Assembly (NCBI GenBank): GCA_947471035.1
Contig: CANIWJ010000003.1
Coordinates: 1 to 64,000, forward strand
Direction of reading: 5' to 3'
DNA length: 64,000 nucleotides
DNA from: Verrucomicrobiota bacterium
GTDB lineage: Bacteria; Verrucomicrobiota; Verrucomicrobiia; Opitutales; Opitutaceae
Under the pieces are notes generated by a model that was not told the origin of the DNA, did not search any database, and saw nothing but the letters and a program-made list of their open reading frames with translations. A program made the position numbers and the translations under genes. Below are positions 3,126-30,214 of this stretch, one piece after another (positions within the stretch are counted from its first letter, which is position 1; every line of letters starts with the position of its first letter).

Positions 3126-3226
3126 AATGACGAATGCCTAATGACGAATGGGCAAAATCACCAACTAACCAATTACCATAACCCAGCTAGGATAATTAGG
3201 CATCCGTCATTCGACATTCGTCATTT
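3126..3226. repeat. family-A repeat element (imperfect palindrome built from AATGACGAATG units) between ABC ATPase and permease genes
   Basis: AATGACGAATG-CCT-AATGACGAATG ... CCGTCATTCG-A-CATTCGTCATT; arms ~27 bp, spacer ~50 bp. Confidence 0.7.
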
Positions 3227-3229
3227 TCC

Positions 3230-4463: not shown

Positions 4464-5354
4464 ATGGTTTACCCAAGACGCATCACCACGCTCGCGCTCC
4501 TCTGCGCCACCCTTTTATCCGCCTCACCCGACACGGAAACCATCCTCATCGAGGCCCGGCGTCTCGTGCGCGAGCAACGCCTGCCCGAGGCCCGTTTGCC
4601 TCTGGAACAACTTCTCGCTGACCAGCCCGGCAATTCCGAGGCCACCTTGCTCCTCGCCCGGGTAAACGACCGCACCGGCCGACGCGATGACGCCCTCTCC
4701 CTTCTCGAGCCCCTCGCCAACCGTTACCCCGAAGACCCGCGCGTCATCGGCCTTTACGCCGGTATATGCATGCTCCGCGCGGGCGAACTCGGTGTCAGTT
4801 TGCGCGCCATTCGTCTGGCCCGCCGCGGACGTGAACTCATGGAAAAAGCCGTTGCACTCGCCCCCGACGAGATCGCCTACCACGAAGGTCTGGTGGATTT
4901 TTACCGCCAAGCCCCCGGCATAGTCGGCGGCGACGTGGCCAAAGCCCGCTTGCACGCCGACGCAGTTGCCCGGATCGATCCCGTTCGCGGCGCCGCCTGG
5001 CAGGCCTCGATACTGGTGCAGGAAAAAAAGTTTCCCGAAGCCCTCGCCGCTTGTGATGCCGCCCTTCGGGTTAAGCCCGACGACTACATCGCCCTGTTTA
5101 CCCTTGGCCGCACCGTCGCCGAAAGCGGACTCCGTCTCCCCGACGGGGAAGCTGCCCTCCGTCGCTGCTTTGCCGTCGTGCCCCGCCCCAGCGAGCCCAG
5201 CCATGCCGGGGTTTGGCACTGGCTGGGCCTGATCGCGGAGAAACGCCACGACCTCACCGCCGCCCGTGCCGCCTACGCCAAGGCCTTGGAAATGGAACCT
5301 TCCTTCAACCGCCCCGCCGAGGCCCTCCGTCGACTCGACAGCAAAACCGACTGA
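4464..5354 (+). CDS. TPR-repeat protein with signal peptide
   Basis: Hydrophobic N-terminus [12 protein letters not shown] followed by repeated helical TPR-like units. Start moved to ATG 4464 because the track ORF (4233) begins inside the permease gene. Confidence 0.6.
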
Positions 5355-5425
5355 ACCACCCGTCCGGCCAAGTGCTTCCTGCCGCCGTACACCCGGCTTG
5401 CGCCCCGACCGGCCCTCGCCTCAGT

Positions 5426-6028
5426 GTGCCCGCTAAATCCCTACCGCGCGTGCTCCTCGTTATCGACAACTACGACTCCTTTACCTTCAACCTCGTACAA
5501 TACTTCGGCCAACTCGGCGTGGCGCAGCGCGTCTTTCGCAACGACGAGATCACCCCCGCCGAAGCCCTCGCGCTCAACCCTGACCGCATCCTCATTTCTC
5601 CCGGCCCTTGCTCCCCCGCCGAGGCCGGCGTCTCCCTCGAAATGATCGGTGCCTTCGCCGGGAAGAAACCCATCTTGGGCGTCTGTCTTGGCCACCAGTC
5701 CATCGGCCACTACTTCGGCGGCCGAGTCGTCCGGGCCGACCGTCTCATGCACGGCAAGACCTCGCCCATCCTCCACCAAAACACCGACGTGTTCGCCGGC
5801 ATGCCCCAAAGCTTTGCCGCCACCCGCTATCATTCGCTACTCGTCGAGCGCGCCACCCTTCCCGCCTGTCTCGCCATCACCGCTGAAACCGCTGAAGGCG
5901 AAATCATGGGTCTGCGCCACCGCGAACTCCCCATCTGGGGCGTCCAATTCCACCCAGAAAGCATCGCCACCGAAGGCGGCATGCGCATCCTGGAAAATTT
6001 CCTAAAACTCAACGCGCCTAACTCCTAG
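5426..6028 (+). CDS. trpG: anthranilate/aminodeoxychorismate synthase component II (class-I glutamine amidotransferase)
   Basis: [23 protein letters not shown], catalytic GVCLGHQ and HS..FHPES triad motifs. GTG start at 5426 (or 5450) inferred; upstream part of the track ORF rejected. Confidence 0.8.
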
Positions 6029-6040
6029 GCCCCCGCTCCG

Positions 6041-6085
6041 CCTACTAGCCATACTCGCTTACCAGCTCTACTAGCTCCCTTCCGC
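6041..6085. repeat. family-B CTAGC-rich ~30-bp dispersed repeat (copy 1, trpG-nrdR intergenic)
   Basis: CTTACCAGCTCTACTAGCTCC; shares TACCAGCT(Y)TACTAGC core with the copies at 7585-7616 and 11118-11165. Confidence 0.7.
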
Positions 6086-6113
6086 TCCTCGCTCCCTGCT
6101 CTGAACTTCCACA

Positions 6114-6581
6114 ATGCGCTGTCCCAAATGCACCTCCATCGAGGATAAGGTGATCGACTCCCGCATCAGCCGCGAGGGCAACACCATCCGCCGCCGCCGC
6201 GAATGCCTGGAGTGCGGTCACCGCTTCACCACCACCGAAACCCTCGTGCGCGAAGGCATCGTCGTCCTCAAGCACGACGGCCGCCGCCAAGATTTCGACC
6301 GCGAGAAACTCACCCGCTCGGTCCGCGCCGCCTGCCACAAACGCCCCATCGACGCCGAACGCGTCAGCATGCTGGTGGACGACGTCATGGATATCCTTGA
6401 AGCCCGGCACGACACCGAAATCCCCAGCGACGCCATCGGCGAAGGCGTCATGCACCAGCTCCGTAAAATCGACCACGTCGCCTACGTGCGCTTCGCCAGT
6501 GTATACAAGGAGTTCCGCGACGTCTCCGAATTCGTCAGCGAAATCAAAGACCTCGGCAAAAAAACCGAGACACCGATCTAA
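6114..6581 (+). CDS. nrdR: transcriptional repressor NrdR
   Basis: MRCPKCTSIEDKVIDSR...CLECGHRFTTTE zinc ribbon plus ATP-cone region; 155 aa. Confidence 0.9.
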   Translation: MRCPKCTSIEDKVIDSRISREGNTIRRRRECLECGHRFTTTETLVREGIVVLKHDGRRQDFDREKLTRSVRAACHKRPIDAERVSMLVDDVMDILEARHDTEIPSDAIGEGVMHQLRKIDHVAYVRFASVYKEFRDVSEFVSEIKDLGKKTETPI

Positions 6582-6677
6582 ACCACGAATTCTCACTAAT
6601 AATCACTGATTTAAACCCCCGTCTGATTTTTCAATTAGTACCCATTAATGACCATTAGTGGTTAAAAAACTAGCCTG

Positions 6678-7196
6678 ATGCCTCCCCCGCCCGCGCCTGC
6701 CGCCCGCGACGACCTTCGCCGCCTGCACTTCGTAAACGCCCTCTTCGCCCGCCTCACTGGCGACGACCTTTACCTCGCCCGCCAAATCCAGGACGCCATC
6801 GCCTTCAGTCTGAACGAGCTCGAAATCCAGACCCGCGAACACCCCGAGTTTGCCGCCCGCTACGACGCCGCTTTCTCCGCCGCCGCCGCCCGCCTGCTCG
6901 GTGCGTTTTTCGCCGACCAACCCGGCCAAGGGTTTTTCCACTGGAACGCCCTCACCACCCTCACCTCCGCCACCCCGCTCTTCGCCCGCGCCGAGCTCAT
7001 GGCCGGCCTAAAACGCCTCGCCGCCCACCGTGAAGCCACCCTGCTGGTCACGAACTTGCGCGCCGCATTTCTGCCTCCCTCCCAACGCGAGACCACCCGC
7101 CGGCGCCGCGAATACGACGAAGCCCTCGCCTACGTGCGCGACCTCGCCGCCGCCCGTTCCCGCCCTGACGCCGACGTCCGCCTGCTCTTTCTCTAA
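6678..7196 (+). CDS. hypothetical protein
   Basis: 172-aa ORF with coding-like composition between nrdR and the HIT gene; no recognisable motif. Confidence 0.45.
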   Translation: MPPPPAPAARDDLRRLHFVNALFARLTGDDLYLARQIQDAIAFSLNELEIQTREHPEFAARYDAAFSAAAARLLGAFFADQPGQGFFHWNALTTLTSATPLFARAELMAGLKRLAAHREATLLVTNLRAAFLPPSQRETTRRRREYDEALAYVRDLAAARSRPDADVRLLFL

Positions 7197-7215
7197 CATC
7201 CCGCTAACCATTGCC

Positions 7216-7554
7216 ATGCCCACCCTCTTTCAACGCATCATCGCGCGCGAAATTCCCGCCCGTATCGAGCACGAAGACGACCACTGCATCGTCATTCACG
7301 ACATCCAGCCGCAAGCCCCCGTCCACCTTCTCATTATCCCCAAAACCGCCATCCGCCGCGTTGGCGAAGCCACGCCCGACCAGCAAGCAACCCTCGGCCA
7401 CCTCCTGCTCACCGCCGGCATGGTCGCCAAAAAACTCAACCTCGCGCGCGGCTTCCGCCTTGTCGTCAACCACGGCCCCGACGCTTGCGAAACCGTCCCG
7501 CATTTACACGTTCACCTCTTAGCCGCCCGCCAACTCGCCTGGCCCCCAGGTTAA
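7216..7554 (+). CDS. HIT-family (histidine triad) hydrolase
   Basis: MPTLFQRIIAREIPA...HLHVHLL histidine triad motif; ATG at 7216 inside the longer track ORF. Confidence 0.85.
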   Translation: MPTLFQRIIAREIPARIEHEDDHCIVIHDIQPQAPVHLLIIPKTAIRRVGEATPDQQATLGHLLLTAGMVAKKLNLARGFRLVVNHGPDACETVPHLHVHLLAARQLAWPPG

Positions 7555-7584
7555 GCCTCCCCTTTCCCCTTACCAGCTTACTAG

Positions 7585-7616
7585 CCCTACTAGCTTAAAG
7601 CTCTCCTGCCCTTCCC
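7585..7616. repeat. family-B repeat (copy 2, upstream of S8-like gene)
   Basis: CCCCTTACCAGCTTACTAGCCCTACTAGCTT. Confidence 0.7.
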
Positions 7617-7619
7617 CGC

Positions 7620-9689
7620 GTGAAGCCCGCCCCCGCCGCACGCCTCTTCTTTGTCTTCGCTTTCCTGTTCGTCGCCGTGCGCGCCGACTGGCTCGACGAC
7701 GTCGGCTACACCCGCCTGCTCCAAACCTATTCCTCCGGTGTACCCGCCTCGGTCGCGTCCGGCGTCAGTCAGATCGAGGCTCCCGACGGCGCAGCCAATT
7801 ACGCCGCCGATTCACCCGGAAAAAGCCCGACCTTAAAATCCGGTGCCTCGGGTGCAAACGGCCACGCCTCTACTGTAGCGGTTTACTACTATAGCTCTGC
7901 CTCCAGCGTTATCCCTGACACCTCAATTATCGACGCGTACAACGCCAACACTTGGCTCTACTCTGGCTTTCTAAATTATAACACAACTTCGGTCCCGCTC
8001 ACGGAGTCGCGCCGCATCCAAAACCACAGCTGGATCGCTCAGTTCGACCGCAACCAATATGCCGAATCCACGATCACCTCGGCTGTAGCAAACTACAACC
8101 AGCGCCTCGACTACGCCAGCGATCGCGACGGCTTCCTCGCCGTCGTCGGCACCAACAACGGCGCCAGCACCACCCTGCCCGACCTCATGGTCCAAGGGTA
8201 CCACAGCCTATCCGTCGGCCTTACCAGCGGCAACCACGCTGCCGGTCTCACCACCCACGACACCGCCGGCCGGATGAAACCCGACCTCGTCGCCTACGAA
8301 TCACTCACCAGTTTCGCCACCCCCCAGGTCTCCAGCGTCGCCGGCCTGCTCTCCGAAAAACTCCGTAACAACGCCTACTCTTCCGCACTCACCACCGCCG
8401 ACTACCCCCGCCTGACCAAAGCCCTCCTCCTCGCCGGTGCCACCAAGGACACTCTCGCCACCTGGTCCCGTGCCGACACCGCCAAACCCTACGACGCCAC
8501 CTACGGCGCAGGCGCGCTCAACACCCTCCTCTCCTACCGTATTCTGAGCGCCGGCCGCCAAACCGCCTCCGCCTCTTCCACTCTCGCCGAAACCGGCTGG
8601 GCCATTTCTACCGTGCGCAGCAGTACCTCCGCCTCCAGCCGAACCTACTTTTTCGACATCCCTGCCGCCACCACCGCCACCCGCTTCTCCGCCGCCCTCA
8701 CCTGGCATCGTAATCTAAGCTACCCTTTCATTTTTACCGGCACCTTCAGCACCAGCCTCCCCAACCTCGACCTCCGCCTCCACGCCGTCGCATCCGGCAC
8801 ATTCACCCTCGGCACCCAAATCGACGCCAGCCTCAGCCCCGTGGACAACGTCGAACACCTCTACCAAGCCAACCTTCCCCCCGGCCGCTACGCACTCCAA
8901 GTATCCTCCGCCGCCTCTACCGCCACCACCTACGCCCTCGCCTGGCGCACCTCGCCCACCGTCACCGTCGCAGCCACCGCCCCCACCGCCCGAGAAACCG
9001 ACCTCTCACCCGCCACCTTCACCCTCACCCGCACCGGCCCCACCACCTCCCCCCTGCTCATCCCGCTCACTTGGGGCGGCACCGCCGCCCCCGGAACCCA
9101 TTATCAAACCCCTCCCGCCACCGCGCTGATCCCCGCCGGCTCCGCCAGCACCACGCTGACCTTAACCCCCATCGCCGACGACCTCGCCCAAGGTGATCGC
9201 ACCCTCACCCTCACTGTCGTCCAGGACTTTTCCCTCTCCGTCGGCAGCTCCGCCACCGCCATCGCAACCCTCGAGGACAAACCCTACGACGCCTGGCGCT
9301 ACGCCCGCTTCACCTCCGATCAACTCGCCGACTCCACCGCCACCGGCCCCGACGCCGACCCCGACGCCGACGGCCTGCCCAACCTGCTCGAATACGCCTT
9401 TGGCCGATCCCCGCTCTCACCTGACGCCAACGACGCAATACCCGCCCCGAGCATAGACGCTAACGGCTACCTAAACCTGTCGTTTTTTCAGGCGTCCGAC
9501 CGCCCCGATCTCAGTTACCTCGTTGAATGGACCGACGACCTCACCGCCACCTGGCGCAGCGGCCCGGATTACACTACTGATGTTAACGCCGAAGCCCGTC
9601 CCACCGGTGAGCAAATTACCGTCAGCGCCGTGACACCTCTGGCCGATTCCCCCCGCCAATTCCTCCGCCTCCGGGTCACCCGTCAGTAA
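7620..9689 (+). CDS. secreted subtilisin-like (S8) serine peptidase-like protein with C-terminal extension
   Basis: Signal peptide MKPAPAARLFFVFAFLFVAVRA. Segments resemble S8 Asn/Ser regions (SGNHAAG ... LTSFATPQVSSVAGLL versus GTSMA(S/T)PHV(A/S)G.AAL). C-terminal DPDADGLPNLLEYAFG module; GTG start. Confidence 0.55.
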   Translation: MKPAPAARLFFVFAFLFVAVRADWLDDVGYTRLLQTYSSGVPASVASGVSQIEAPDGAANYAADSPGKSPTLKSGASGANGHASTVAVYYYSSASSVIPDTSIIDAYNANTWLYSGFLNYNTTSVPLTESRRIQNHSWIAQFDRNQYAESTITSAVANYNQRLDYASDRDGFLAVVGTNNGASTTLPDLMVQGYHSLSVGLTSGNHAAGLTTHDTAGRMKPDLVAYESLTSFATPQVSSVAGLLSEKLRNNAYSSALTTADYPRLTKALLLAGATKDTLATWSRADTAKPYDATYGAGALNTLLSYRILSAGRQTASASSTLAETGWAISTVRSSTSASSRTYFFDIPAATTATRFSAALTWHRNLSYPFIFTGTFSTSLPNLDLRLHAVASGTFTLGTQIDASLSPVDNVEHLYQANLPPGRYALQVSSAASTATTYALAWRTSPTVTVAATAPTARETDLSPATFTLTRTGPTTSPLLIPLTWGGTAAPGTHYQTPPATALIPAGSASTTLTLTPIADDLAQGDRTLTLTVVQDFSLSVGSSATAIATLEDKPYDAWRYARFTSDQLADSTATGPDADPDADGLPNLLEYAFGRSPLSPDANDAIPAPSIDANGYLNLSFFQASDRPDLSYLVEWTDDLTATWRSGPDYTTDVNAEARPTGEQITVSAVTPLADSPRQFLRLRVTRQ

Positions 9690-9695
9690 GCCGTC

Positions 9696-10841
9696 TCACC
9701 GTGCCTCGAAGCGCCCATCCGCCCGCTTCGCCACTGCCCGCTTTAGCTCCAGCATCATTAACGCCGCCGAAAGCTCGCCCGCGCCCAATCCCGTGGCTCC
9801 TGCTAACTCATCAACGCTCAAAATAGCCCCGCCCGAGAAACACCCCAGCACCCGCGCCTCCTCCGCGCCCAAATCTACCGGCACCTTCCGCGCGCTCGCT
9901 TGCGCCGCCCGCTCCCCGTCCGCCGGGATCGCCGCCACCCCCGCCGGACCGAAACCCTCCAGATAATTCAACTCGCTCAGCACATCGTCCACCGAGGTCA
10001 ATAATGTCGCCCCATCGCGGATCAACTGGTGACACCCCGCGCTGCTCGGCTGGTCGATCCGTCCCGGCACCGCGAATACGAGTCTCCCCTGCTCACCCGC
10101 GAATTTCGCCGTGATCATCGAGCCCCCGCTCACATCGCTCTCCACCACGATCACCGCCTGACACATTCCCGCCACGATCCGATTGCGCATCGCGAACGAC
10201 TGCTTGTCCGCCCGCCGCCCGAACGGAAACTCGGTCAGAATCATCCCGCCGCCCTCCTCGATTTTTCGATAAAGTCCCAAGTTCTCCGGCGGATAAACGA
10301 TGTCGATGCCCGTGCCCAGCACCGCCGCCGTGCGCCCCTTCGCCTCCAACGCCCCCTCGTGCGCAAACGTGTCGATCCCGCGCGCCAACCCGCTCACCAC
10401 GCAAAACCCCAGCTTGGCCAAATCGTAACCCAGTTTCTTCGCCGTCGCCTGCCCATAGAGCGTAGTCCGCCGCGACCCCACGATCGCCACACACGGCGCG
10501 TCCACCGCATAGTCGCCCCGCCGATACAGCCCCAACGGAGCATCCGCCAACTCCTTCAACAAGGGCGGATACCCCGCATCCCGCCGACTCACAAACGTCG
10601 CCCCCGCCTGCGCCAGCCACTCCTCCTCTTTCGCCAGATCCACCAAGGCCCGCCACCCGCGCAGATTCGCGCTGATCTTCGGCCCCACCCCGCGCACCGC
10701 CTCCAACTCCCGCTGCGGCGCATCGAGCAAACGCGTCGGATCGTCCTCAAACGCAGCCAACAGCCGATTCGTCGTGATCGGCCCGATGTCGGGCAGCGCA
10801 TTCAAAACCAAAAACGCCTGGGTGGCCGTCAACTCGCTCAT
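9696..10841 (-). CDS. dprA: DNA-processing protein DprA (Smf)
   Basis: Rossmann-like DprA core GIDTFAHEGAL...AVLGTGIDIVYPPEN...VVESDVSGGSMITAKFAGEQGR. Start ATG at 10841 overlaps the nnr stop (ATGA). Confidence 0.85.
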   Translation of the reverse strand: MSELTATQAFLVLNALPDIGPITTNRLLAAFEDDPTRLLDAPQRELEAVRGVGPKISANLRGWRALVDLAKEEEWLAQAGATFVSRRDAGYPPLLKELADAPLGLYRRGDYAVDAPCVAIVGSRRTTLYGQATAKKLGYDLAKLGFCVVSGLARGIDTFAHEGALEAKGRTAAVLGTGIDIVYPPENLGLYRKIEEGGGMILTEFPFGRRADKQSFAMRNRIVAGMCQAVIVVESDVSGGSMITAKFAGEQGRLVFAVPGRIDQPSSAGCHQLIRDGATLLTSVDDVLSELNYLEGFGPAGVAAIPADGERAAQASARKVPVDLGAEEARVLGCFSGGAILSVDELAGATGLGAGELSAALMMLELKRAVAKRADGRFEAR

Positions 10842-12451
10842 GGCCGTGAATCCCGCAACACCGGTCCGAGAAAGTCCAGCAGCTCCGTCGTCCGCACCGC
10901 CACCTGCCCCCGCGCCCGCGCCAGCGAGTCCGCCGCCATCCCGTGCCACACCACCCCGCGCGCCGCCGCCCCCAGCGCATCCTCCGGCGTTTGCGCCAAC
11001 AAACCGCCAATCAAACCCGCCAACACATCCCCGCTCCCGCCCCGCGCCAAAACCGGCCCGCCGAAAAAACTGTGGTAAACCGCTCCCTGCTCCCCACTCC
11101 TAGCGCCCCCAGCGCTACTCCCCTTAACTAGCTCTACCAACTTACTAGCTCTACTAGCTTCCCCGCCCCCCGCTCCCACCGTTTCAATCCGCGTCACCGG
11201 CCCCTTGCGCACTACCACCGCGCCCTCCGGCACTGCCTCTGCGATCCGCGCCCATTCGCCCGCATGAGGCGTCAGCACCCGCGCCGCGCTGCCCCGCGCC
11301 ACCACCTCCGGCCGCAAGGCATCCGCATCGATCACCAGCGGTCTCGGCGAGGCCGCTACGATCTCACCCGCCAACGCTAGCGTCTCCCGCTCGGTTCCCA
11401 TGCCCGGCCCCAGCACCACCGCCGTCGCCCGCCCGAACGCCTCGCGCACCAGCCCAAACCCTTCCAAGGCCAGCCCGCCCTCCGGCGTCTCTGGCAAGCC
11501 AAACCACATCGCCTCCGGCACCTGCGCGACAAACGCCGGCACCAACGATTCCGGCACCGCCGCCGTGACCAAGCCTGCCCCCGCCCGCAATGCAGCCAAG
11601 GTCGCCATCAACGCCGCCCCTGCATACCGCCGCGACCCCGCCACGATCAGTACCTGCCCAAACGTCCGCTTGTCACTCCTTGCCACCCGTAACGCTCTCA
11701 CCCTCTCCAAGACCCCCGCCCCCAGCCCCAAGTAACCTATTGGGTTACTTGGTAGCGGAAAACCGAGATCGAGGAAGCGCACCCGCCCGGCGTTTTCCAA
11801 AGTCAACAACGGCGATTTCACGCTGCCCGTCGCGTAGGTAAAATCCGCCCGAAACGCGTCCGCCGCATCCAGTCCGCTGGGCAAATCCACCGCCGCCCGA
11901 AGCCGGATCGGATATGCGTTAACCCGCGCCAGAACCGAGGCCACCACACCCTCCAACGGCGGCCTAAACTGAAACCCCAAAACCCCGTCCAAAACCATCT
12001 CATACCCTGCCTTCCAATCCCTCCCGTCCAAGCCCACTCGTCGAACTCCCCGCTCCCCGCCCCCTGCCGCAAGCTCCAAAGCCCGCCGCGTCAAAGGCCG
12101 CAATACCCGCTCGCCGAAAACCAACAACACATCCACCGCTATCCCCGGATACCGTGCGCGCAGTTCGGCTGCCGCCAGCAAAGCGTCGCCCGCGTTGTGC
12201 CCCTTGCCGACCAAAACCAGCACGCGGGCATCCGAGGGAAATTCGCCTAGCTCCGCATAATCCCGCAACACCCCGTCGGCCACCGCCCGACCCGCCACCC
12301 GCATCGCCGCCCACTCGCGCGCTTCGTCCCCCGCGAAATACTCCGCCTCAAAGACCCGCGCCTCGTCACAACTCAAAATCGGATAAGTTCCAGTGATCAC
12401 CGCGACAAAATGACGAATTCTCACTTCACATAGCGAGCACCACCGGTGCAT
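10838..12451 (-). CDS. nnr: bifunctional NAD(P)H-hydrate repair enzyme Nnr (epimerase/ADP-dependent dehydratase)
   Basis: YjeF-N LVLVGKGHNAGDALLAA and YjeF-C GGSGDVLAGLIGGLLAQ motifs. Contains an in-frame copy of repeat family B. The 5' end overlaps a family-A repeat, so the true start may be a downstream GTG. Confidence 0.8.
   Translation of the reverse strand: MHRWCSLCEVRIRHFVAVITGTYPILSCDEARVFEAEYFAGDEAREWAAMRVAGRAVADGVLRDYAELGEFPSDARVLVLVGKGHNAGDALLAAAELRARYPGIAVDVLLVFGERVLRPLTRRALELAAGGGERGVRRVGLDGRDWKAGYEMVLDGVLGFQFRPPLEGVVASVLARVNAYPIRLRAAVDLPSGLDAADAFRADFTYATGSVKSPLLTLENAGRVRFLDLGFPLPSNPIGYLGLGAGVLERVRALRVARSDKRTFGQVLIVAGSRRYAGAALMATLAALRAGAGLVTAAVPESLVPAFVAQVPEAMWFGLPETPEGGLALEGFGLVREAFGRATAVVLGPGMGTERETLALAGEIVAASPRPLVIDADALRPEVVARGSAARVLTPHAGEWARIAEAVPEGAVVVRKGPVTRIETVGAGGGEASRASKLVELVKGSSAGGARSGEQGAVYHSFFGGPVLARGGSGDVLAGLIGGLLAQTPEDALGAAARGVVWHGMAADSLARARGQVAVRTTELLDFLGPVLRDSRP
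11118..11165. repeat. family-B repeat (copy 3) inserted in-frame inside nnr
   Basis: CTCCCCTTAACTAGCTCTACCAACTTACTAGCTCTACTAGCTTCCCC lies within the uninterrupted nnr ORF. Confidence 0.7.
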
Positions 12452-12507
12452 CCACCCGCCGCATAACTCATAGATGCCTTGATTATTACGGCTCCCTTTT
12501 CGCTAAA

Positions 12508-13815
12508 CTACGACCCCGCCCGCCGCCCCACTCCCGGGCGCGGAGAAACGATTCGCACCGGCACCGGCTCACCCACCGAGCGGGCCGCCACTTCGCGGAT
12601 CTTATCCTTTTTGCTCTTTCGCCGCCCTTTGATGCCGCCGCCATCAGGCGCGACCAACGGCGACGCCGCCTCCGTCTCGTGCGGCGCAAATCCCTCGATC
12701 TGTTCCCGCTCCAGCGTCAGCCCGTGCAACTTCTCGATCAGGCAAAAATGCGCGTGCGTGCTGGCGCTCACGAAACTGATCGCCACCCCCGCCTCGCCCG
12801 CCCGTCCCGTGCGCCCGATGCGGTGCGTGTAGTCCACCGCCGAACGCGGCAGATCGTAGTTCACCACCACTGGCAGCTTGGGAATGTCGATTCCGCGCGC
12901 CACCAGATCGGTCGCGATCAACACCTTAACTTTCCCTGTTTTTAAATCCGCCAGCGCCTGGGTTCGGGCCCCCTGGCTCAACTCCCCGTGCAGGGCCGCC
13001 GCCGCGATACCCGCGCGCCCTAGCTTTTCCGCCACATGCTCGGTCGCGTATTTCGTCGCCACAAACACCAGCACACCCGACCACGGATTCGTCTCGATCA
13101 AATGCCGCAACAACTGCGTGCGGCGCGGCACGTCCACTTCGATCACCCGTTGTAAAATCTCCGGAGCGGCCTCCTCTGTCACCGGTGCCTCGATACGCAC
13201 CGGGGCGCGCAGCAAGGCAGCCGCCAGCGCCTGCACTTCGGGCGGAAACGTCGCGGAAAACAACAAACTCTGCCGCCGCTTCGGCAGCAAACCGACGATG
13301 CGATCAAGCTCAGCCTTGAACCCCAGATCGAGCAGCCGGTCCGCCTCGTCCAGCACCAGGACCGACACCTCCGCCAGCGAGAGCGCATTGTGGTCGATAA
13401 GATCGAGCAAGCGCCCCGGCGTGGCGACCAGAAGATCGGCCCCGCCGCCCAGCGCCATCATCTGTGGGTTGATCGACAGACCGCCCACCGCCACCAGCGT
13501 CTTGAGCGGCTGGGGTAGGTAACGCGCATAACGCCGCACCGCCTCCACCACCTGCGTGGCCAGTTCCCGAGTCGGCACCAAAATCAATGCGCTCACAAAC
13601 CGCCCGTCCGGCCGCCGCGCCGCCGCCAGCTTTTGCACCAAGGGCAACGCAAACGCGGCCGTTTTTCCCGACCCCGTCTGCGCCGACGCCCAGACGTCCC
13701 CACCCTTCAAAATCACCGGAATCGCCTCCGCTTGGATCGGCGTCGGCACCTCGTAATGCCATGCCGCCACGGCGCGCTGCAACGGTTCGGAAAGTCCCAA
13801 ATTAGAAAACGACAT
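12508..13815 (-). CDS. DEAD-box ATP-dependent RNA helicase (RhlE-like)
   Basis: Q-motif/Walker A AQTGSGKTAAF, PTRELA, DEAD (VLDEAD), SAT, HRIGRTGR motifs. Confidence 0.9.
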   Translation of the reverse strand: MSFSNLGLSEPLQRAVAAWHYEVPTPIQAEAIPVILKGGDVWASAQTGSGKTAAFALPLVQKLAAARRPDGRFVSALILVPTRELATQVVEAVRRYARYLPQPLKTLVAVGGLSINPQMMALGGGADLLVATPGRLLDLIDHNALSLAEVSVLVLDEADRLLDLGFKAELDRIVGLLPKRRQSLLFSATFPPEVQALAAALLRAPVRIEAPVTEEAAPEILQRVIEVDVPRRTQLLRHLIETNPWSGVLVFVATKYATEHVAEKLGRAGIAAAALHGELSQGARTQALADLKTGKVKVLIATDLVARGIDIPKLPVVVNYDLPRSAVDYTHRIGRTGRAGEAGVAISFVSASTHAHFCLIEKLHGLTLEREQIEGFAPHETEAASPLVAPDGGGIKGRRKSKKDKIREVAARSVGEPVPVRIVSPRPGVGRRAGS

Positions 13816-14079: not shown

Positions 14080-15174
14080 ATGAGCCTTACCCTCCGCGAT
14101 AAATCATCCGTCGTTTTCGACCAAGTCTCCCTCGGCGAAGTCATGCTTCGTCTCGACCCCGGCGAGGGTCGCATCCGCACCGCCCGTTCCTTCGCGGCCT
14201 GGGAAGGCGGCGGCGAGTACAACACCTCCCGCGGCCTGCGCAAATGCTTCGGCCTCAAGACCGCCGTCGCCACCGCTTTCGTTGATAACGAAATCGGTCA
14301 CCTCGTCGAAGACTTCATCATGCAGGGTGGCGTCGCCACCGACTTCATCAAATGGCGCGAGGACGACGGCATCGGCCGCACCGTGCGCAACGGGCTCAAC
14401 TTCACCGAGCGCGGCTTCGGCATCCGCGGCGCAGTCGGCAACCCCGACCGTGGCAACACCGCCGCTTCCCAGATCAAGCCCGGTGATTTCGATTGGGACC
14501 ACATTTTCGGCAAGCTCGGCGCCCGCTGGTTCCACACCGGCGGCATCTTCGCCGCCCTCTCCACCTCGACCGCCGAGGCGACCATCGAAGCGGTTAAAGC
14601 CGCCAACAAACACGGCGTCATCGTCTCCTACGATCTCAACTACCGCCCCTCGCTCTGGAAGACCATCGGCGGCCTCAAAAAAGCCCAGGAGGTCAACCGC
14701 GAGATCGCCAAATACGTGGATGTCATGATCGGCAACGAAGAGGACTTCACCGCTTCGCTCGGCTTCGCCGTCAAGGGTGCCGAGGACCTCAAACACATCG
14801 AGACCGATGCATTTAAGACCATGATCGAGACCGCTGTGAAGGAATTCCCCAACTTCAAGGTCGCCGCCACCACGCTGCGTCACGTGCACACCGCCACGGT
14901 TAACGACTGGTCGGCCATCCTCTGGCACGACGGCCAGTTTTACGAGAGCAAGCAATACCCCCGCCTGGAGATCCTCGACCGCGTCGGCGGCGGCGACTCC
15001 TTTGCCAGCGGCCTCCAGTTCGGCTTCCTCGAATTCAACGATCCGAAAAAAGCCGTTGAATACGGAGCCGCCCACGGTGCCCTGGCCTCCACCACCCCTG
15101 GCGACACCTCCATGGCTACCCGCAAAGAGGTCGAAAAAACCATCGGTGGCGGCGGCGCCCGTGTCGTTCGTTAA
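14080..15174 (+). CDS. PfkB-family sugar kinase (ketodeoxygluconokinase-like)
   Basis: Ribokinase-fold signatures including C-terminal DRVGGGDSFASG (anion hole/ATP site). Confidence 0.8.
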   Translation: MSLTLRDKSSVVFDQVSLGEVMLRLDPGEGRIRTARSFAAWEGGGEYNTSRGLRKCFGLKTAVATAFVDNEIGHLVEDFIMQGGVATDFIKWREDDGIGRTVRNGLNFTERGFGIRGAVGNPDRGNTAASQIKPGDFDWDHIFGKLGARWFHTGGIFAALSTSTAEATIEAVKAANKHGVIVSYDLNYRPSLWKTIGGLKKAQEVNREIAKYVDVMIGNEEDFTASLGFAVKGAEDLKHIETDAFKTMIETAVKEFPNFKVAATTLRHVHTATVNDWSAILWHDGQFYESKQYPRLEILDRVGGGDSFASGLQFGFLEFNDPKKAVEYGAAHGALASTTPGDTSMATRKEVEKTIGGGGARVVR

Positions 15175-26995: not shown

Positions 26996-29900
26996 ATGAT
27001 CGCCTTCATCATCCGCTGGTCGCTGCACAACCGCTTCATCGTCCTCGCCGCCTTCGTCGCACTCTGCGCCTGGGGCGTGGTCGCGCTGAAACGCGTGCCG
27101 GTGGACGCCATTCCCGATCTTTCCGAGAATCAAGTGATCGTTTACGCCGACTTGCCCGGCCGCTCGCCCCAGGAAGTCGAAGATCAGATCACCTACCCGC
27201 TCTCAGTCTCCCTCCAAGGCTTGGCCGGCGTAAAAACCGTGCGCGCCACGTCCATGTTCGGCTTCTCGTTTCTCACCGTTATTTTCGACGACAAAATCGA
27301 AAACTACTTCGCCCGGACGCGGGTGCTGGAGCGTCTGAATTCCTTAGGAGAACTTCTGCCGTCCGCCGTCACCGCACGCCTCGGGCCCGACGCCACCGGC
27401 CTCGGCTGGGTTTATCAATATTACCTAAAGGACGCCTCCGGGAAACAAGACCTCGGCTCCCTGCGCGCCCTGCAAGATACGTTTATCCGTTATCAACTCG
27501 CCGCCACCCCCGGCGTCGCCGAGGTCGCCAGCATCGGTGGTTTCGTCCGCCAGTATCAAATCGAGGTTTCGGCCCTGAAACTAAAACAGTTCGGCCTCTC
27601 CCTCGGCGAAGTGATTGACGCCGTCGGGGCCAGCAACGCCAACGTCGGCGGCAAAACCCTGGAGGAAAACGGCGCCGAATATATCGTGCGCGGCGTCGGC
27701 TTGGTAACCTCACCCGCCGATCTGGAAAAGATCCCGCTCATGCCGCGCGGTGGTGTGCCGCTCACCCTGCGCGATGTCGCCACCGTGCAGATCGGCGGCG
27801 AGTTCCGGCGCGGAGCGCTCGATGTGGATGGCCGCGCCGTGGTCGGCGGCATCGTCGTGATGCGCTACGGCGAAAATGCCTATCAAGTCATCCAAGACGT
27901 AAAGGCTCGCCTAGCCACCCTCGCCCCCGGCCTGCCCGCCGGCGTCACGGTCGCGCCATTTTACGACCGGGCCGACCTGATCCAGCGCGCGATCGATACG
28001 CTCAAGCACGCGCTCACCGAAGAGATTATTCTGGTAACGCTCGCCCACATCCTCTTCCTGTTTCACTTCCGCAGCATCCTGATCGTCACGCTGCCGCTGC
28101 CGGCGTCGATCCTGGTTTCGTTTATCCTCATGGATCGTTTCGGCATTCCGTCGAACATCATGTCGCTGACCGGCATCGCCATCTCCATCGGCGTGCTAGT
28201 CGATGCCGGTATCGTCATGACCGAAAACGTCATTCGCCACTGCGAACGCGCCGAGGAAGAGCTCCGCCGGCGACTCACCCCACCGGAGGTTTTTCAACAC
28301 ACGCTGGAAGCCGCCACCCAAGTCGGGCGTCCGATGTTTTTCTCGATGATGATCATCATCCTGGCCTTCGTTCCGGTGTTCCTGCTCTCGGGTCAGGAGG
28401 GAAAGCTCTTTCACCCGCTCGCCTACACCAAGAGTTTCGCCCTACTCGGCGCGGTCATTCTAGCCATCACCGCCGTGCCGGTTTTCTGCACTTACCTCGT
28501 TCGCGGTCCCTTCAAGCCCGAGAGCGAAAACTGGCTGATGAAGTTTCTCCTCCTCGGCTACGAGCCCTTGCTCGATTGGGCGCTCACCCATCGCAAAACC
28601 GTCATGTCCCTCGCCGCCACGCTATTGGTCATCACGTCCGTCATCGCCTTCGGCCTCCCTCAGCCGATTTCGTCATTCGTCATTCGTCATTCGTCATTGC
28701 CGGAGCGTTTCACGCGAGGGTTCGGCTCCGAGTTCATGCCCACGCTTGAGGAAGGCTCGCTGCTCTTCATGCCTGTGTTGCTGCCGTCCACCTCGCTCAC
28801 CGAAGTAAACCGCATCATGAGCTGGCAGGACAAGGTCATCGCCTCGCACCCCGAGGTCGTCTCCGTGGCCGGAAAACTCGGCCGCGCCGACACCGCCACC
28901 GACCCCGCTCCGGTCGAGATGATCGAGACCACCATCCTGCTCAAACCCGCCTCCGAGTGGCGACCCGGTGTCACCAAGGCAAAAATCATCTCGGAGCTTT
29001 CGGAACGGCTCACCCAAGTGCCCGGCTACGTGCCCGGTTTTCTCCAGCCGATCGAGAATCGCATTCTGATGACGAGCACGGGCATTCGCGCCCAAGTCGG
29101 CGTAAAGATTTTCGGCGACAACATCGACGCGCTCCAGGCCAAAGCATTCGAGATTGAGCGCGTGATCGCAGGTATTTCCGGCGCGACTGGCGTCGCACCC
29201 TCGCGTGCCCAGGGCAAACCCTACCTCGAAATCACGCCGGATCGCGAAGCCCTGCGCCGCTACGGCCTGCGCGTGGCCGACGTGTTTTCCTACGTCGAAA
29301 CCGGCATCGGCGGCGCCGTCGCCACGACTACGCTAAAAGGCCGTGAACGCTGGCCGGTGCAGGTCCGGCTGGAGCGAGCTGACCGCGACGATCTCGATAA
29401 AATCGGCGACTTATTAATCCCCACCCCCTCCGGGCCGTTCGTTCCGTTGCGCCAGATCGCGGCCATCAAACGAGTTGTCGGCGCCAGTGAGATTCAGAGC
29501 GAAAATGGACGTCTCCGCGTCTTCGTCCAGGCCAACGTCCAAAACCGCGACCTCGGCGGCTTCGTGGACGAAATTAAAGCCAAAGTAACCCAATCGGTTA
29601 CTTTGGATCCGGGCATGACCATCGAGTATTCCGGCCAATACGAACACCAGATCCGTGCCCGCCAGACCCTCGCCTACGTGTTCCCGGCGGTGATCGTGAT
29701 CATCTTTATCCTGCTGGTAATGACGTTTCGCAGCGTTCCCGAGGCTGCGCATGTTATCCTCGCCGTGCCCTTTGCCCTCACCGGTGGCGTGATTCTCCAA
29801 TCCATCCTCGGCTTCAATTTTAGCGTGGCAGTCTGGGTCGGATACATCGCGCTTTTCGGCACCGCTATCCAGACCGGCGTGGTAATGGTAGTGTATCTGG

Positions 29901-30214
29901 AGGAAGCGGTAGTTTCCCTCCGCAAGCAACTCGGCCGGGAGCTGACCCGCAAGGAACTGGTCGATGCGATCAAAGTCGGCGCGCGCCTCCGCTTGCGCCC
30001 CAAGGTGATGACGGTCGCCACCACCGTCGCCTCGCTGCTGCCGATATTCTGGAGCGCGCGGACTGGAGTAGAAGTGATGCAACCCATCGCCGCCCCCGTA
30101 GTCGGCGGCATGCTATCGTCACTGCTGCATATCCTTCTAGTCACCCCGGTCATTTTCGCCTGGCTGCACGAACGTCGCCTCCCGAAGGAATCGAACAACC
30201 CAGCTTCTGTGTAA
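26996..30214 (+). CDS. czcA: heavy-metal efflux RND transporter (CzcA/CusA family)
   Basis: 1072 aa, 12-TM RND architecture with HME-type conserved segments; contains a heptamer-repeat insertion at 28670-28697. Confidence 0.95.
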   Translation: MIAFIIRWSLHNRFIVLAAFVALCAWGVVALKRVPVDAIPDLSENQVIVYADLPGRSPQEVEDQITYPLSVSLQGLAGVKTVRATSMFGFSFLTVIFDDKIENYFARTRVLERLNSLGELLPSAVTARLGPDATGLGWVYQYYLKDASGKQDLGSLRALQDTFIRYQLAATPGVAEVASIGGFVRQYQIEVSALKLKQFGLSLGEVIDAVGASNANVGGKTLEENGAEYIVRGVGLVTSPADLEKIPLMPRGGVPLTLRDVATVQIGGEFRRGALDVDGRAVVGGIVVMRYGENAYQVIQDVKARLATLAPGLPAGVTVAPFYDRADLIQRAIDTLKHALTEEIILVTLAHILFLFHFRSILIVTLPLPASILVSFILMDRFGIPSNIMSLTGIAISIGVLVDAGIVMTENVIRHCERAEEELRRRLTPPEVFQHTLEAATQVGRPMFFSMMIIILAFVPVFLLSGQEGKLFHPLAYTKSFALLGAVILAITAVPVFCTYLVRGPFKPESENWLMKFLLLGYEPLLDWALTHRKTVMSLAATLLVITSVIAFGLPQPISSFVIRHSSLPERFTRGFGSEFMPTLEEGSLLFMPVLLPSTSLTEVNRIMSWQDKVIASHPEVVSVAGKLGRADTATDPAPVEMIETTILLKPASEWRPGVTKAKIISELSERLTQVPGYVPGFLQPIENRILMTSTGIRAQVGVKIFGDNIDALQAKAFEIERVIAGISGATGVAPSRAQGKPYLEITPDREALRRYGLRVADVFSYVETGIGGAVATTTLKGRERWPVQVRLERADRDDLDKIGDLLIPTPSGPFVPLRQIAAIKRVVGASEIQSENGRLRVFVQANVQNRDLGGFVDEIKAKVTQSVTLDPGMTIEYSGQYEHQIRARQTLAYVFPAVIVIIFILLVMTFRSVPEAAHVILAVPFALTGGVILQSILGFNFSVAVWVGYIALFGTAIQTGVVMVVYLEEAVVSLRKQLGRELTRKELVDAIKVGARLRLRPKVMTVATTVASLLPIFWSARTGVEVMQPIAAPVVGGMLSSLLHILLVTPVIFAWLHERRLPKESNNPASV
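28670..28697. repeat. four perfect tandem copies of heptamer TCGTCAT (reverse of ATGACGA, family A) inside czcA
   Basis: TCGTCAT x4 read directly; encodes the SFVIRHSS segment of the periplasmic loop. Confidence 0.85.

What the first reader, a model, noticed from the sequence alone, without database searches (positions are those of the whole stretch)
11118..11165. Short CTAGC-rich dispersed repeat (family B) inserted in-frame inside the conserved nnr gene
Family B is a ~30-45-bp element with core TACCARCT(Y)TACTAGCYCTACTAGCT. Two copies are intergenic (6041-6085 and 7585-7616). A third copy lies inside the uninterrupted nnr reading frame, where it encodes roughly ...GGEASRASKLVELVKGSSAGG... 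. This falls in the loop just before the conserved GGSGDVLAG dehydratase motif, a place where Nnr homologues normally have a short linker. In-frame protein-coding insertions of a palindrome-containing mobile repeat are well known for Rickettsia palindromic elements but are rare elsewhere. CTAG is normally a strongly avoided tetranucleotide in bacteria, which makes the element conspicuous.
Basis: seen in the sequence. Interest (0 to 1): 0.7.

Follow-up and report, generated by a model that had tools for sequence, protein, structure and literature searches.

The report
Stray tandem nonamer repeat inside nnr
A 36-base run of 8-10-base repeats sits in-frame in a surface loop of the NAD(P)H-repair enzyme Nnr; it is a misplaced copy of an apparently undescribed Opitutaceae repeat family that normally lies just upstream of start codons.

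Summary
The window has three arrays of 8-10-bp units (consensus CTACYAGCT): 6043-6077, 7571-7596 and 11125-11160. The third lies inside the intact nnr ORF and encodes EASRASKLVELVK.

The Nnr loop is about 23 aa longer than in roughly 70%-identical orthologues. An 88%-identical relative carries the same insert in decayed form. AlphaFold places it in a low-confidence beta-hairpin loop just before GGSGDVLAG.

The comparison with Rickettsia palindromic elements (RPEs) does not hold. The element has no hairpin and no terminal inverted repeats. It is a dispersed, oriented tandem-repeat family, multi-copy in at least five Opitutaceae or Verrucomicrobia genomes assembled from metagenomes (MAGs). In 367 kb I found 74 arrays of 2-19 units.
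- 45 of 66 assessable arrays end a median 11 nt upstream of a start codon in the gene's orientation (9 in reverse; p about 1e-12).
- At least 26 of 41 fill tight junctions between co-directional genes.
- The leaders are G-poor, lack a Shine-Dalgarno (SD) motif and fold weakly.

Unit number differs between species (3 versus 19), and one array is present or absent between close relatives. Coding copies are rare, about 5 of 66.

Best reading: the nnr copy is a tolerated, antisense, in-frame stray. What the family does is inferred only; most likely it is an unstructured leader or intercistronic spacer. It is a new variant of known kinds.

The parts
11125..11160 (+). Core array inside nnr: four units (10+8+9+9 = 36 nt), in the family's + orientation and so antisense to nnr. 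Translated on the minus strand as E431-K443, EASRASKLVELVK.
   Evidence: Sequence; pattern matches; Tandem Repeats Finder row 11127-11159, period 9; translation.
11090..11167 (-). Approximate whole lineage-specific insert in Nnr (residues about 429-454). It consists of the core array plus C-rich flanks that look like decayed units, with GCT or GCG every 7-10 nt.
   Evidence: Loop is 50 aa against 27-28 aa in L112 and L113; alignment A1; AlphaFold pLDDT below 50 for residues 429-454, between strands 420-424 and 458-461.
10838..12451 (-). nnr, the bifunctional NAD(P)H-hydrate epimerase/dehydratase and host gene. The ORF is intact. The true start is probably about 17-18 codons downstream of the first ATG.
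   Evidence: ORF; Pfam PF03853 and PF01256; orthologues; closest solved structure is T. maritima Nnr, 2ax3.
6043..6077 (+). Array of four units in the 85-nt spacer between a GATase gene (stop at 6026-6028) and nrdR (ATG 6114). It is co-oriented with nrdR.
   Evidence: An array sits upstream of nrdR in four genomes.
7571..7596 (+). Array of three units in the 65-nt spacer between a HIT-family gene (ends 7554) and a 689-aa gene (GTG 7620). The close relative lacks it.
   Evidence: Clean 44-nt presence/absence difference against L109.

Best explanation
The segment at 11125-11160 is a stray copy of a lineage-specific family of oriented tandem arrays. Units are 8-9 bp, consensus (C)TACYAGCT(C/T).

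Shown: in Opitutaceae these arrays normally occupy the last few dozen bases before a start codon, co-oriented with the gene, often filling the whole spacer between two co-directional genes.

Shown for the nnr copy:
- It lies in the opposite orientation to nnr.
- It is read in the two antisense frames that lack TAG: GCT-AGT-AGA gives ASR and CTA-GTA-GAG gives LVE.
- One 8-bp and one 10-bp unit compensate, so the 36 nt keep the frame.
- It sits in a length-variable beta-hairpin loop just before the GGSGD motif, and the predicted fold is otherwise intact.
- It was already present in the common ancestor of two species-level lineages.
- It has since diverged at about the rate of the rest of the gene.

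Inferred for the nnr copy:
- The insert is tolerated rather than functional in Nnr.
- It arose by ectopic copying of a leader-type array, or by seeding followed by slippage.

Inferred for the family:
- Arrays grow and shrink by replication slippage and decay by T-to-C change (CTAG to CCAG to CCCG).
- The arrays are transcribed as part of the mRNA.
- The strong orientation and position bias reflects selection at RNA level for a G-poor, unstructured, SD-free leader or intercistronic spacer, in a clade where SD pairing is scarce.
For: Identity with the family:
- Exact 17-mer shared with the intergenic copies, 0 expected by chance.
- Multi-copy only in five verrucomicrobial MAGs in a 596-Gb scan. 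Single hits in other phyla are at about the chance level of roughly 280, by my estimate.

Normal niche:
- 74 arrays in 367 kb. Spacing is 9 bp 232 times and 8 bp 96 times.
- 45 of 66 arrays have a start codon within 60 nt downstream in the same orientation, against 9 in reverse and 26% at random positions; p = 7e-13. The median gap is 11 nt.
- 26 of 41 lie about 15 nt after the stop of a co-directional upstream gene.

RNA properties:
- Leaders fold at -14.2 kcal/mol, against -31.5 for random 100-mers and -26.2 for their antisense.
- There is no structure signal (z about 0).
- 0 of 46 array-to-start spacers holds an SD-like tetramer.
- The Opitutaceae relative IMCC26134 is reported as SD-scarce (PMC10783764).

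Dynamics:
- The same gene carries 3 versus 19 units in two genomes.
- Arrays sit upstream of nrdR in four genomes with 4-fold-site identity of 0.88 to 0.60.
- A 44-nt presence/absence difference separates the window from L109.

The nnr insert:
- It is present only in P0001 and P0002 among 28 orthologues.
- The relative has the same four units with six substitutions, four of them T/C or A/G transitions.
- Nucleotide identity is 0.871 in the insert against 0.873 for the whole gene.
- Loops without the insert are 27-28 aa in L112 and L113.
- AlphaFold gives pLDDT 85 overall but below 50 for residues 429-454, between two strands.

Not an artefact: the sequence is identical in three independent assemblies of each species.

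Recurrence in coding DNA: there is a sense-oriented TSS-repeat insert in an amidase domain.
Against: - No expression data exist. Transcription of the arrays and translation of the insert are both inferred.
- Only 2 of about 21 called genes in the first 22 kb of the window carry arrays, so the family cannot be a general initiation signal.
- A neutral, self-renewing repeat tolerated in only one orientation would give the same statistics.
- No copying mechanism is identified: no inverted repeats, no clear target-site duplication, no associated enzyme.
- In-situ origin of the nnr array cannot be excluded.
- The 44-nt difference could be a deletion in the relative rather than an insertion in the window lineage.
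- Start codons in the loci were called with a crude ORF and GC3 rule, not a gene finder. That rule gave poor results when I used it to call whole genes.
Confidence: 0.75

Rival explanations
1. RPE-like miniature mobile element. On this view a discrete palindrome-bearing element of 30-45 bp transposes and preferentially creates in-frame fusions with host genes.
For: The family is dispersed and multi-copy. One locus shows presence/absence between close relatives, with similar C-rich decamers (CCCTTTCCCC and CCCTTCCCC) on both sides. There are in-frame copies in nnr and in an amidase.
Against: There are no terminal inverted repeats and no hairpin. Length runs from 2 to 19 units rather than being fixed. 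About 5 of 66 arrays are coding, against nearly half for RPEs (PMC10969869). No single peptide is conserved: the antisense frames give ASR and LVE and the sense frame gives TSS. Orientation follows the downstream gene.
Confidence: 0.05
2. Neutral or selfish self-renewing microsatellite. The arrays have no benefit. They arise and expand by slippage and persist only where harmless, namely leaders in the sense orientation and flexible protein loops.
For: The array upstream of nrdR differs at 8 of 36 positions between the window and L109, against 12% divergence at 4-fold sites, so there is no constraint on the exact sequence. Unit number is unconstrained, 3 versus 19. Some arrays cluster in non-coding stretches away from any start, as in L020 and L070. 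Few genes carry arrays.
Against: Persistence at the same locus (nrdR) across genomes with up to 40% synonymous divergence is unexpected for useless DNA in bacteria. The same unit is kept across several genera-level genomes. The extreme orientation bias still requires RNA-level or transcription-level selection.
Confidence: 0.3
3. DNA-level regulatory element. The arrays would be promoters (for example TTACCA-N16-TAGCTT), or tandem operator sites for a protein that binds 8-9-bp direct repeats cooperatively, as MetJ does on met boxes or TrpR on CTAG half-sites (both from memory).
For: Position just upstream of genes, orientation bias, and CTAG repeated at 8-9-bp spacing. Hexamers resembling -35 and -10 can be read in the repeat; this comes from my inspection of the sequence.
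Against: The sigma-70 consensus scan finds no site in either intergenic array. Many arrays end only 0-6 nt before the ATG, so the last unit cannot be a -10 element for that gene. Most arrays sit about 15 nt after an upstream co-directional stop, which fits a position inside an operon. The downstream genes are functionally unrelated.
Confidence: 0.12
4. The nnr repeat arose in situ, by duplication and slippage from a chance seed in the loop, and resembles the family only by convergence.
For: By my estimate a single exact 9-mer seed is expected by chance in roughly 1-2% of genes. The loop tolerates length change.
Against: The insert shares the family's unit order, including the 8-bp TACCAACT unit followed by two CTAG units, as in the copy at 7571-7596. 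It also has leader-like decayed flanks. Only a few unit sequences expand in this genome.
Confidence: 0.1

Closest known systems
Mycobacterial interspersed repetitive units (MIRUs); description from memory, Supply et al. 1997
   Same: Dispersed tandem repeats that lie in the spacers between co-directional genes of operons, in a fixed orientation relative to those genes. Unit number differs between lineages.
   Different: MIRU units are 46-101 bp and carry small ORFs that overlap the neighbouring stop and start codons. Here the units are 8-9 bp and contain no ATG. They are separated from the stop by about 15 nt and from the start by about 11 nt. No unit-number polymorphism was seen within a population.
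Cyanobacterial STRR heptamer repeats and small dispersed repeats; from memory, Mazel 1990 and Elhai 2008
   Same: Very short units repeated in tandem at many dispersed loci of one clade, occasionally inside genes. The window also holds a heptamer family, (TTCGTCA)n, that behaves in the same way.
   Different: Different phylum and different unit length and sequence. To my knowledge the tight, oriented association with start codons has not been described for STRR.
Rickettsia palindromic elements (PMC10969869)
   Same: Repeat DNA inserted in-frame into conserved enzymes at places where the fold tolerates it.
   Different: RPEs are about 150 bp, palindromic, encode a conserved peptide, and lie in ORFs in nearly half of cases. 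This family is a non-palindromic tandem array, is mostly non-coding, and is read in different frames in different genes.
REP/BIME and REPIN elements (PMC3116915)
   Same: Short extragenic repeats, abundant in intercistronic spacers.
   Different: REPs are hairpin-forming palindromes mobilised by RAYT transposases. Here there is no hairpin, and no such enzyme was looked for.

Membership tests
Rickettsia palindromic element / MITE | Terminal inverted repeats or an overall palindromic structure able to form a hairpin | tested here: not met
   RNA folds of both strands across the element give z-scores from -1.7 to +0.4 with no element-wide hairpin. The only palindromes are CTAG and AGCT.
Rickettsia palindromic element / MITE | Fixed element length (about 100-150 bp for RPEs) | tested here: not met
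   Arrays have 2-19 units of 8-9 bp, median 5.
Rickettsia palindromic element / MITE | High frequency of in-frame insertion into ORFs, encoding a conserved peptide | tested here: not met
   About 5 of 66 arrays are coding. The peptides differ by frame: ASRAS/LVELV in nnr and TSSTSS in the amidase.
Rickettsia palindromic element / MITE | Target-site duplication | tested here: inconclusive
   At the one presence/absence locus, similar C-rich decamers flank the array. The same pattern fits a deletion between direct repeats, and no outgroup with the same gene order was found.
MIRU-like intercistronic tandem repeats | Located between co-directional genes and oriented with them | tested here: met
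   26 of 41 arrays lie within about 15 nt (median) of an upstream co-directional stop. 45 arrays are co-oriented with the downstream start against 9 in reverse. Gene ends were called with a crude GC3 rule.
MIRU-like intercistronic tandem repeats | Unit of 46-101 bp with a small ORF overlapping the flanking stop and start codons | tested here: not met
   Units are 8-9 bp with no ATG, and there are gaps on both sides.
STRR-type short tandemly repeated repetitive sequences | Short unit repeated in tandem at many dispersed loci of a genome | tested here: met
   74 arrays in 367 kb from five MAGs plus the window.
STRR-type short tandemly repeated repetitive sequences | Heptamer unit of one of the described STRR sequences, in heterocystous cyanobacteria | tested here: not met
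   The unit is CTACYAGCT, 8-9 bp, and the host is Opitutaceae.
Phase-variable simple-sequence-repeat contingency locus | Unit number varies within a population and switches expression | tested here: not met
   All three arrays are identical in independent assemblies from different samples, for both species. Consensus assemblies would hide minority variants, so this is a weak test.
Nnr (YjeF_N + Carb_kinase bifunctional NAD(P)H-hydrate repair enzyme), the host gene | Both domains present, with the GGSGD motif of the dehydratase | tested here: met
   PF03853 at 1.4e-21 and PF01256 at 2e-42. GGSGD is invariant in A1. The best solved-structure match is 2ax3 at 3.9e-36. The model has pTM 0.86.

The most novel reading that the evidence does not exclude
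The CTACYAGCT arrays are a clade-specific functional module of mRNA leaders. On this reading they are a sequence-defined, unstructured platform for ribosome standby or re-initiation, which partly substitutes for Shine-Dalgarno pairing in SD-scarce Opitutaceae. Unit number would tune translation of the downstream cistron. Coding copies such as the one in nnr would be by-products of the module's spread.
Probability: 0.15. Interest if true: 0.8.

Novelty: new variant of a known kind. Interest (0 to 1): 0.5.

Why it matters
If the family-level picture holds, Opitutaceae carry a repeat class I could not find described. It consists of very short tandem units tied to start codons in one orientation, in a clade where Shine-Dalgarno pairing is scarce. 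That gives a concrete, testable handle on how translation starts, or how cistrons are spaced, without an SD.

It also shows a route by which non-coding repeat DNA becomes protein sequence in the loops of conserved enzymes: Nnr, an amidase and an AcrB-family pump.

There are practical consequences:
- The arrays break assemblies. Eight of 74 lie at contig ends.
- They inflate loop lengths in orthologue alignments.
- Their sense strand is open in two frames, so they can mislead start-codon calling.

For Nnr itself the insert is probably of no consequence.

Tried and rejected
- Rfam at gathering thresholds over the whole window found only a tRNA, so no known RNA family covers the arrays.
- Folding both strands gave no structure beyond shuffled controls. 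I therefore rejected a structured RNA, a terminator and a REP-like hairpin.
- The sigma-70 and terminator consensus scan of 5000-12600 found nothing in the arrays.
- A home-made GC3-based gene caller proved unreliable at 62% GC: it missed known genes and picked an antisense ORF. I dropped it and used only local tests around each array.
- I tried to polarise the 44-nt difference with more distant relatives (P0003, P0017). Gene order differs there, so no outgroup was available.
- Literature searches for the repeat sequence and for Opitutaceae or Verrucomicrobia repeats returned nothing relevant.
- Assembly artefact was rejected, because three independent assemblies are identical.
- I wondered whether the unit pairs with 16S rRNA, since AGCUAGUAG resembles helix 11 of E. 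coli 16S from memory. There is no 16S gene in the window or the loci, so this was not tested and I make no claim.
- I did not run the metagenome scan, because the genome scan gave enough loci.

Full report
**What is in the window**

The + strand carries three short tandem arrays of one unit family.
- 6043-6077: TACTAGCCA, TACTCGCT, TACCAGCTC, TACTAGCTC.
- 7571-7596: TACCAGCT, TACTAGCCC, TACTAGCTT.
- 11125-11160: TAACTAGCTC, TACCAACT, TACTAGCTC, TACTAGCTT.

The 17-mer TACTAGCYCTACTAGCT, allowing up to two mismatches, matches four times against 0.00 expected. CTACTAGC matches four times against 0.26 expected. CTAG is about four-fold under-represented in the window, 55 against about 220, and 7 of the 55 lie in these arrays. 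The repeat finder and Tandem Repeats Finder recover the same family.

Two corrections apply: the coordinates of the second intergenic copy are shifted, and the element holds only tetranucleotide palindromes.

**The host gene and the insert**

ORF 10838-12451 (minus strand, 537 aa) has YjeF_N and Carb_kinase domains. Its best solved relative is T. maritima Nnr. Its closest database relatives are Opitutaceae and other Verrucomicrobia proteins.

In an alignment of 28 orthologues, only the window protein and one 88%-identical protein (P0002) carry GGEASRASKLVELVKGSSAGG or GGEAGRAGKLLELVKGSSAG. All others have a short, variable loop at that point. At DNA level the loop is 50 codons here, against 27-28 in two relatives at about 70% identity.

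The array is antisense to nnr. It is read as GCT-AGT-AGA (ASR) and then, after the 8-bp unit, as CTA-GTA-GAG (LVE). The third antisense frame would hit TAG. The unit lengths 10+8+9+9 sum to 36, which keeps the frame.

The C-rich DNA on both sides of the four good units has GCT or GCG every 7-10 nt. The flanks of the intergenic arrays look the same. The whole insert of about 70 nt therefore looks like an array with decayed edges.

An AlphaFold model (mean pLDDT 85, pTM 0.86) has its main low-confidence internal segment at residues 429-454, between strands 420-424 and 458-461. That is a beta-hairpin loop ahead of GGSGDVLAG.

The same sequence occurs in three independent assemblies from different samples, so it is not an assembly artefact.

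**Age and evolution of the insert**

The relative (L109-L111) is syntenic. It has the same four units at the same place, with six substitutions, four of them T/C or A/G transitions: TTACTAGCTC, TAACAGCT, TGCCAGCTC, TACCAGCTT. The insert therefore predates the split of the two lineages.

Nucleotide identity is 0.871 in the insert and 0.873 over the whole gene. Amino-acid identity is 0.84 against 0.89. The insert drifts with the gene and shows no sign of special constraint.

**The family outside the window**

I scanned one genome per species (596 Gb) for TACYAGCYCTACTAGCT. Multi-copy hits are confined to six MAGs:
- two Opitutaceae MAGs;
- an Opitutus-like MAG;
- a Verrucomicrobia MAG;
- a high-GC MAG labelled Akkermansia;
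- one Bacteroidaceae-labelled MAG with look-alike arrays.

Single hits in other phyla are about what chance predicts, by my estimate of roughly 280 for this pattern.

In 367 kb (45 verrucomicrobial loci, the window and L109) I found 74 arrays of 2-19 units, median 5. Unit spacing was 9 bp 232 times and 8 bp 96 times. The dominant units were TACCAGCTC, TACTAGCTC, TACTAGCT and TACCAGCT. Eight arrays lie at contig ends, as expected for repeats that break assemblies.

**Where the arrays sit**

Of 66 assessable arrays, 45 are followed within 60 nt, on the same strand, by the start of a long ORF with high GC3 (40 of them ATG). Only 9 (2 ATG) have such a start in the reverse orientation. At random positions the figure is 26% (12% for ATG). 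The p-values are 7e-13 and 3e-21. The median gap from the last unit to the start codon is 11 nt.

Arrays on opposite strands within one locus each face their own gene. Orientation therefore tracks the gene and not the replication strand.

For 26 of 41 start-proximal arrays, a co-directional coding ORF ends a median of about 15 nt upstream. In these cases the array fills nearly the whole intercistronic spacer. Both intergenic copies in the window are of this kind, in spacers of 85 and 65 nt according to the collection's gene calls.

None of the 46 array-to-start spacers contains GGAG, GAGG or AGGA. The spacers are 51% C and 12% G. Leaders from -70 to +30 fold at -14.2 kcal/mol, against -31.5 for random 100-mers from the same loci and -26.2 for their own antisense. 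There is no structure beyond shuffled controls.

A published survey lists the Opitutaceae relative IMCC26134 among SD-scarce organisms (PMC10783764). Its Nnr is P0109.

**Dynamics**

- nrdR has an array upstream in four genomes. Their 4-fold-site identities to the window are 0.88, 0.78 and 0.60. Unit content ranges from four imperfect units to at least eight perfect ones.
- One orthologous 303-aa gene has 3 units in one MAG and 19 in another.
- The array upstream of the 689-aa gene is absent from the 88% relative. The difference is a clean 44 nt, flanked by similar C-rich decamers. That fits either an insertion or a deletion between direct repeats.
- Between the window and L109, the nrdR array differs at 8 of 36 positions, while 4-fold sites differ by 12%. 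The exact sequence is therefore not conserved.
- No unit-number differences were seen among assemblies of one species.

**Other coding copies**

An amidase in one MAG has a sense-oriented in-frame copy, LTSSTSSTSSTSFTSSTSST. It lies inside the PF01425 match, with GC3 of 0.94 and 0.88 on either side. Among 79 aligned orthologues the TSS-repeat tract is seen only in that protein. The linker itself is hypervariable and often S/T-rich.

A 259-aa ORF appears to start upstream of an array and to read it as TSTSLTSSTSSTS.

Coding copies thus recur but are rare, about 5 of 66. They use whichever frames lack TAG.

**Interpretation**

Shown:
- A dispersed, oriented tandem-array family exists.
- Its usual position is start-proximal and often intercistronic.
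- The leaders that contain it are G-poor, SD-free and weakly folding.
- Unit number turns over between species.
- The nnr copy is an inherited, in-frame, antisense stray in a loop that tolerates length change.

Inferred:
- The arrays are transcribed within mRNAs.
- Orientation is enforced at RNA level, as an unstructured leader or spacer.
- Arrays grow by slippage and decay by T-to-C change.
- The nnr insert has no function.

Three readings remain open:
- The arrays may confer no benefit.
- They may act at DNA level.
- The nnr array may have grown in situ.

The RPE analogy fails on every structural criterion and holds only for the outcome, namely repeat DNA translated inside an enzyme.

**Novelty and score**

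I found no description of this repeat in the searchable literature. It combines traits of MIRUs (oriented, intercistronic), STRRs (very short tandem units, dispersed) and RPEs (occasional in-frame copies). I rate it a new variant of known kinds.

Interest is 0.5. The nnr insert alone is a curiosity. The oriented, start-codon-linked family in an SD-scarce clade is the more interesting result, and it is directly testable.

Noticed in passing
window 3126-3150, 3196-3229, 28669-28698: A second short tandem-repeat family, with heptamer unit TTCGTCA (reverse complement AATGACG). One array ends directly at the ATG (3230) of a MacB/FtsX-type permease gene. A reverse-oriented array begins right after the stop of the preceding ABC gene (3125). 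A perfect 4.3-unit array lies in-frame inside an AcrB-family pump gene (26996-30214), reads ISSFVIRHSS, and falls exactly where the Pfam ACR_tran match is split, at residue 556. It is absent from the other loci fetched.
   Followed up: partly
window 11732-11748 and 29585-29601; L011, L015, L082, L088: A palindrome GTAACC-N5-GGTTAC, with 2 matches against 0 expected. The first lies in the linker between the two Nnr domains and encodes SNPIGY. Many Opitutaceae Nnr orthologues have CNPIGY, CNQFGY or CHQSGD at the same place. P0054 has four tandem copies and P0052 and P0053 have two. This suggests a second repeat that is translated inside nnr.
   Followed up: partly
Alignment A1 (Nnr orthologues P0014, P0025, P0040, P0054, P0060, P0120): Nnr of this clade carries several independent lineage-specific insertions at different loops, some internally repetitive. 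Examples are TGMATGMATG in P0025 and a duplicated EREQARGLPAG in P0120. In-frame gain of repeat DNA may be a general habit of these genomes.
   Followed up: no
L001, L034, L067, L099, L100 (MAG labelled Bacteroidaceae HGM05072, GC 0.53-0.57): Long non-coding arrays, up to about 24 units, of a look-alike 9-bp unit CTRCTRGYT. This MAG is outside the Opitutaceae. Whether they are related to the family, convergent, or a binning error is unknown.
   Followed up: partly
L020 1230-3730 and L070 6337-7580: Clusters of four or five arrays within 1-2.5 kb of apparently non-coding DNA, away from any start codon. They are interspersed with another recurring motif (cggttaaaaacc). These do not fit the start-proximal pattern.
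   Followed up: no
window 838-22451 (upstream regions of the called genes): Most genes lack a recognisable Shine-Dalgarno motif. Upstream regions of the + strand genes are C/T-rich (for example cttcctccctaccc-ATG). Those of several minus-strand genes are G-richer. The + strand is C-rich overall, with 21487 C against 18187 G.
   Followed up: partly
window 31792-32290: Three copies of a 55-nt segment, 71-78% identical to the reference copy, at exact 222-nt spacing. This is probably an internal 74-aa repeat of a protein on one of the strands.
   Followed up: no
window 14874-14961: Nine clustered mismatches between the window and the otherwise identical metagenome contig L106. A second assembly, L107, is identical to the window over 13.7 kb. 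This looks like a small patch of strain variation inside the PfkB-family gene.
   Followed up: no
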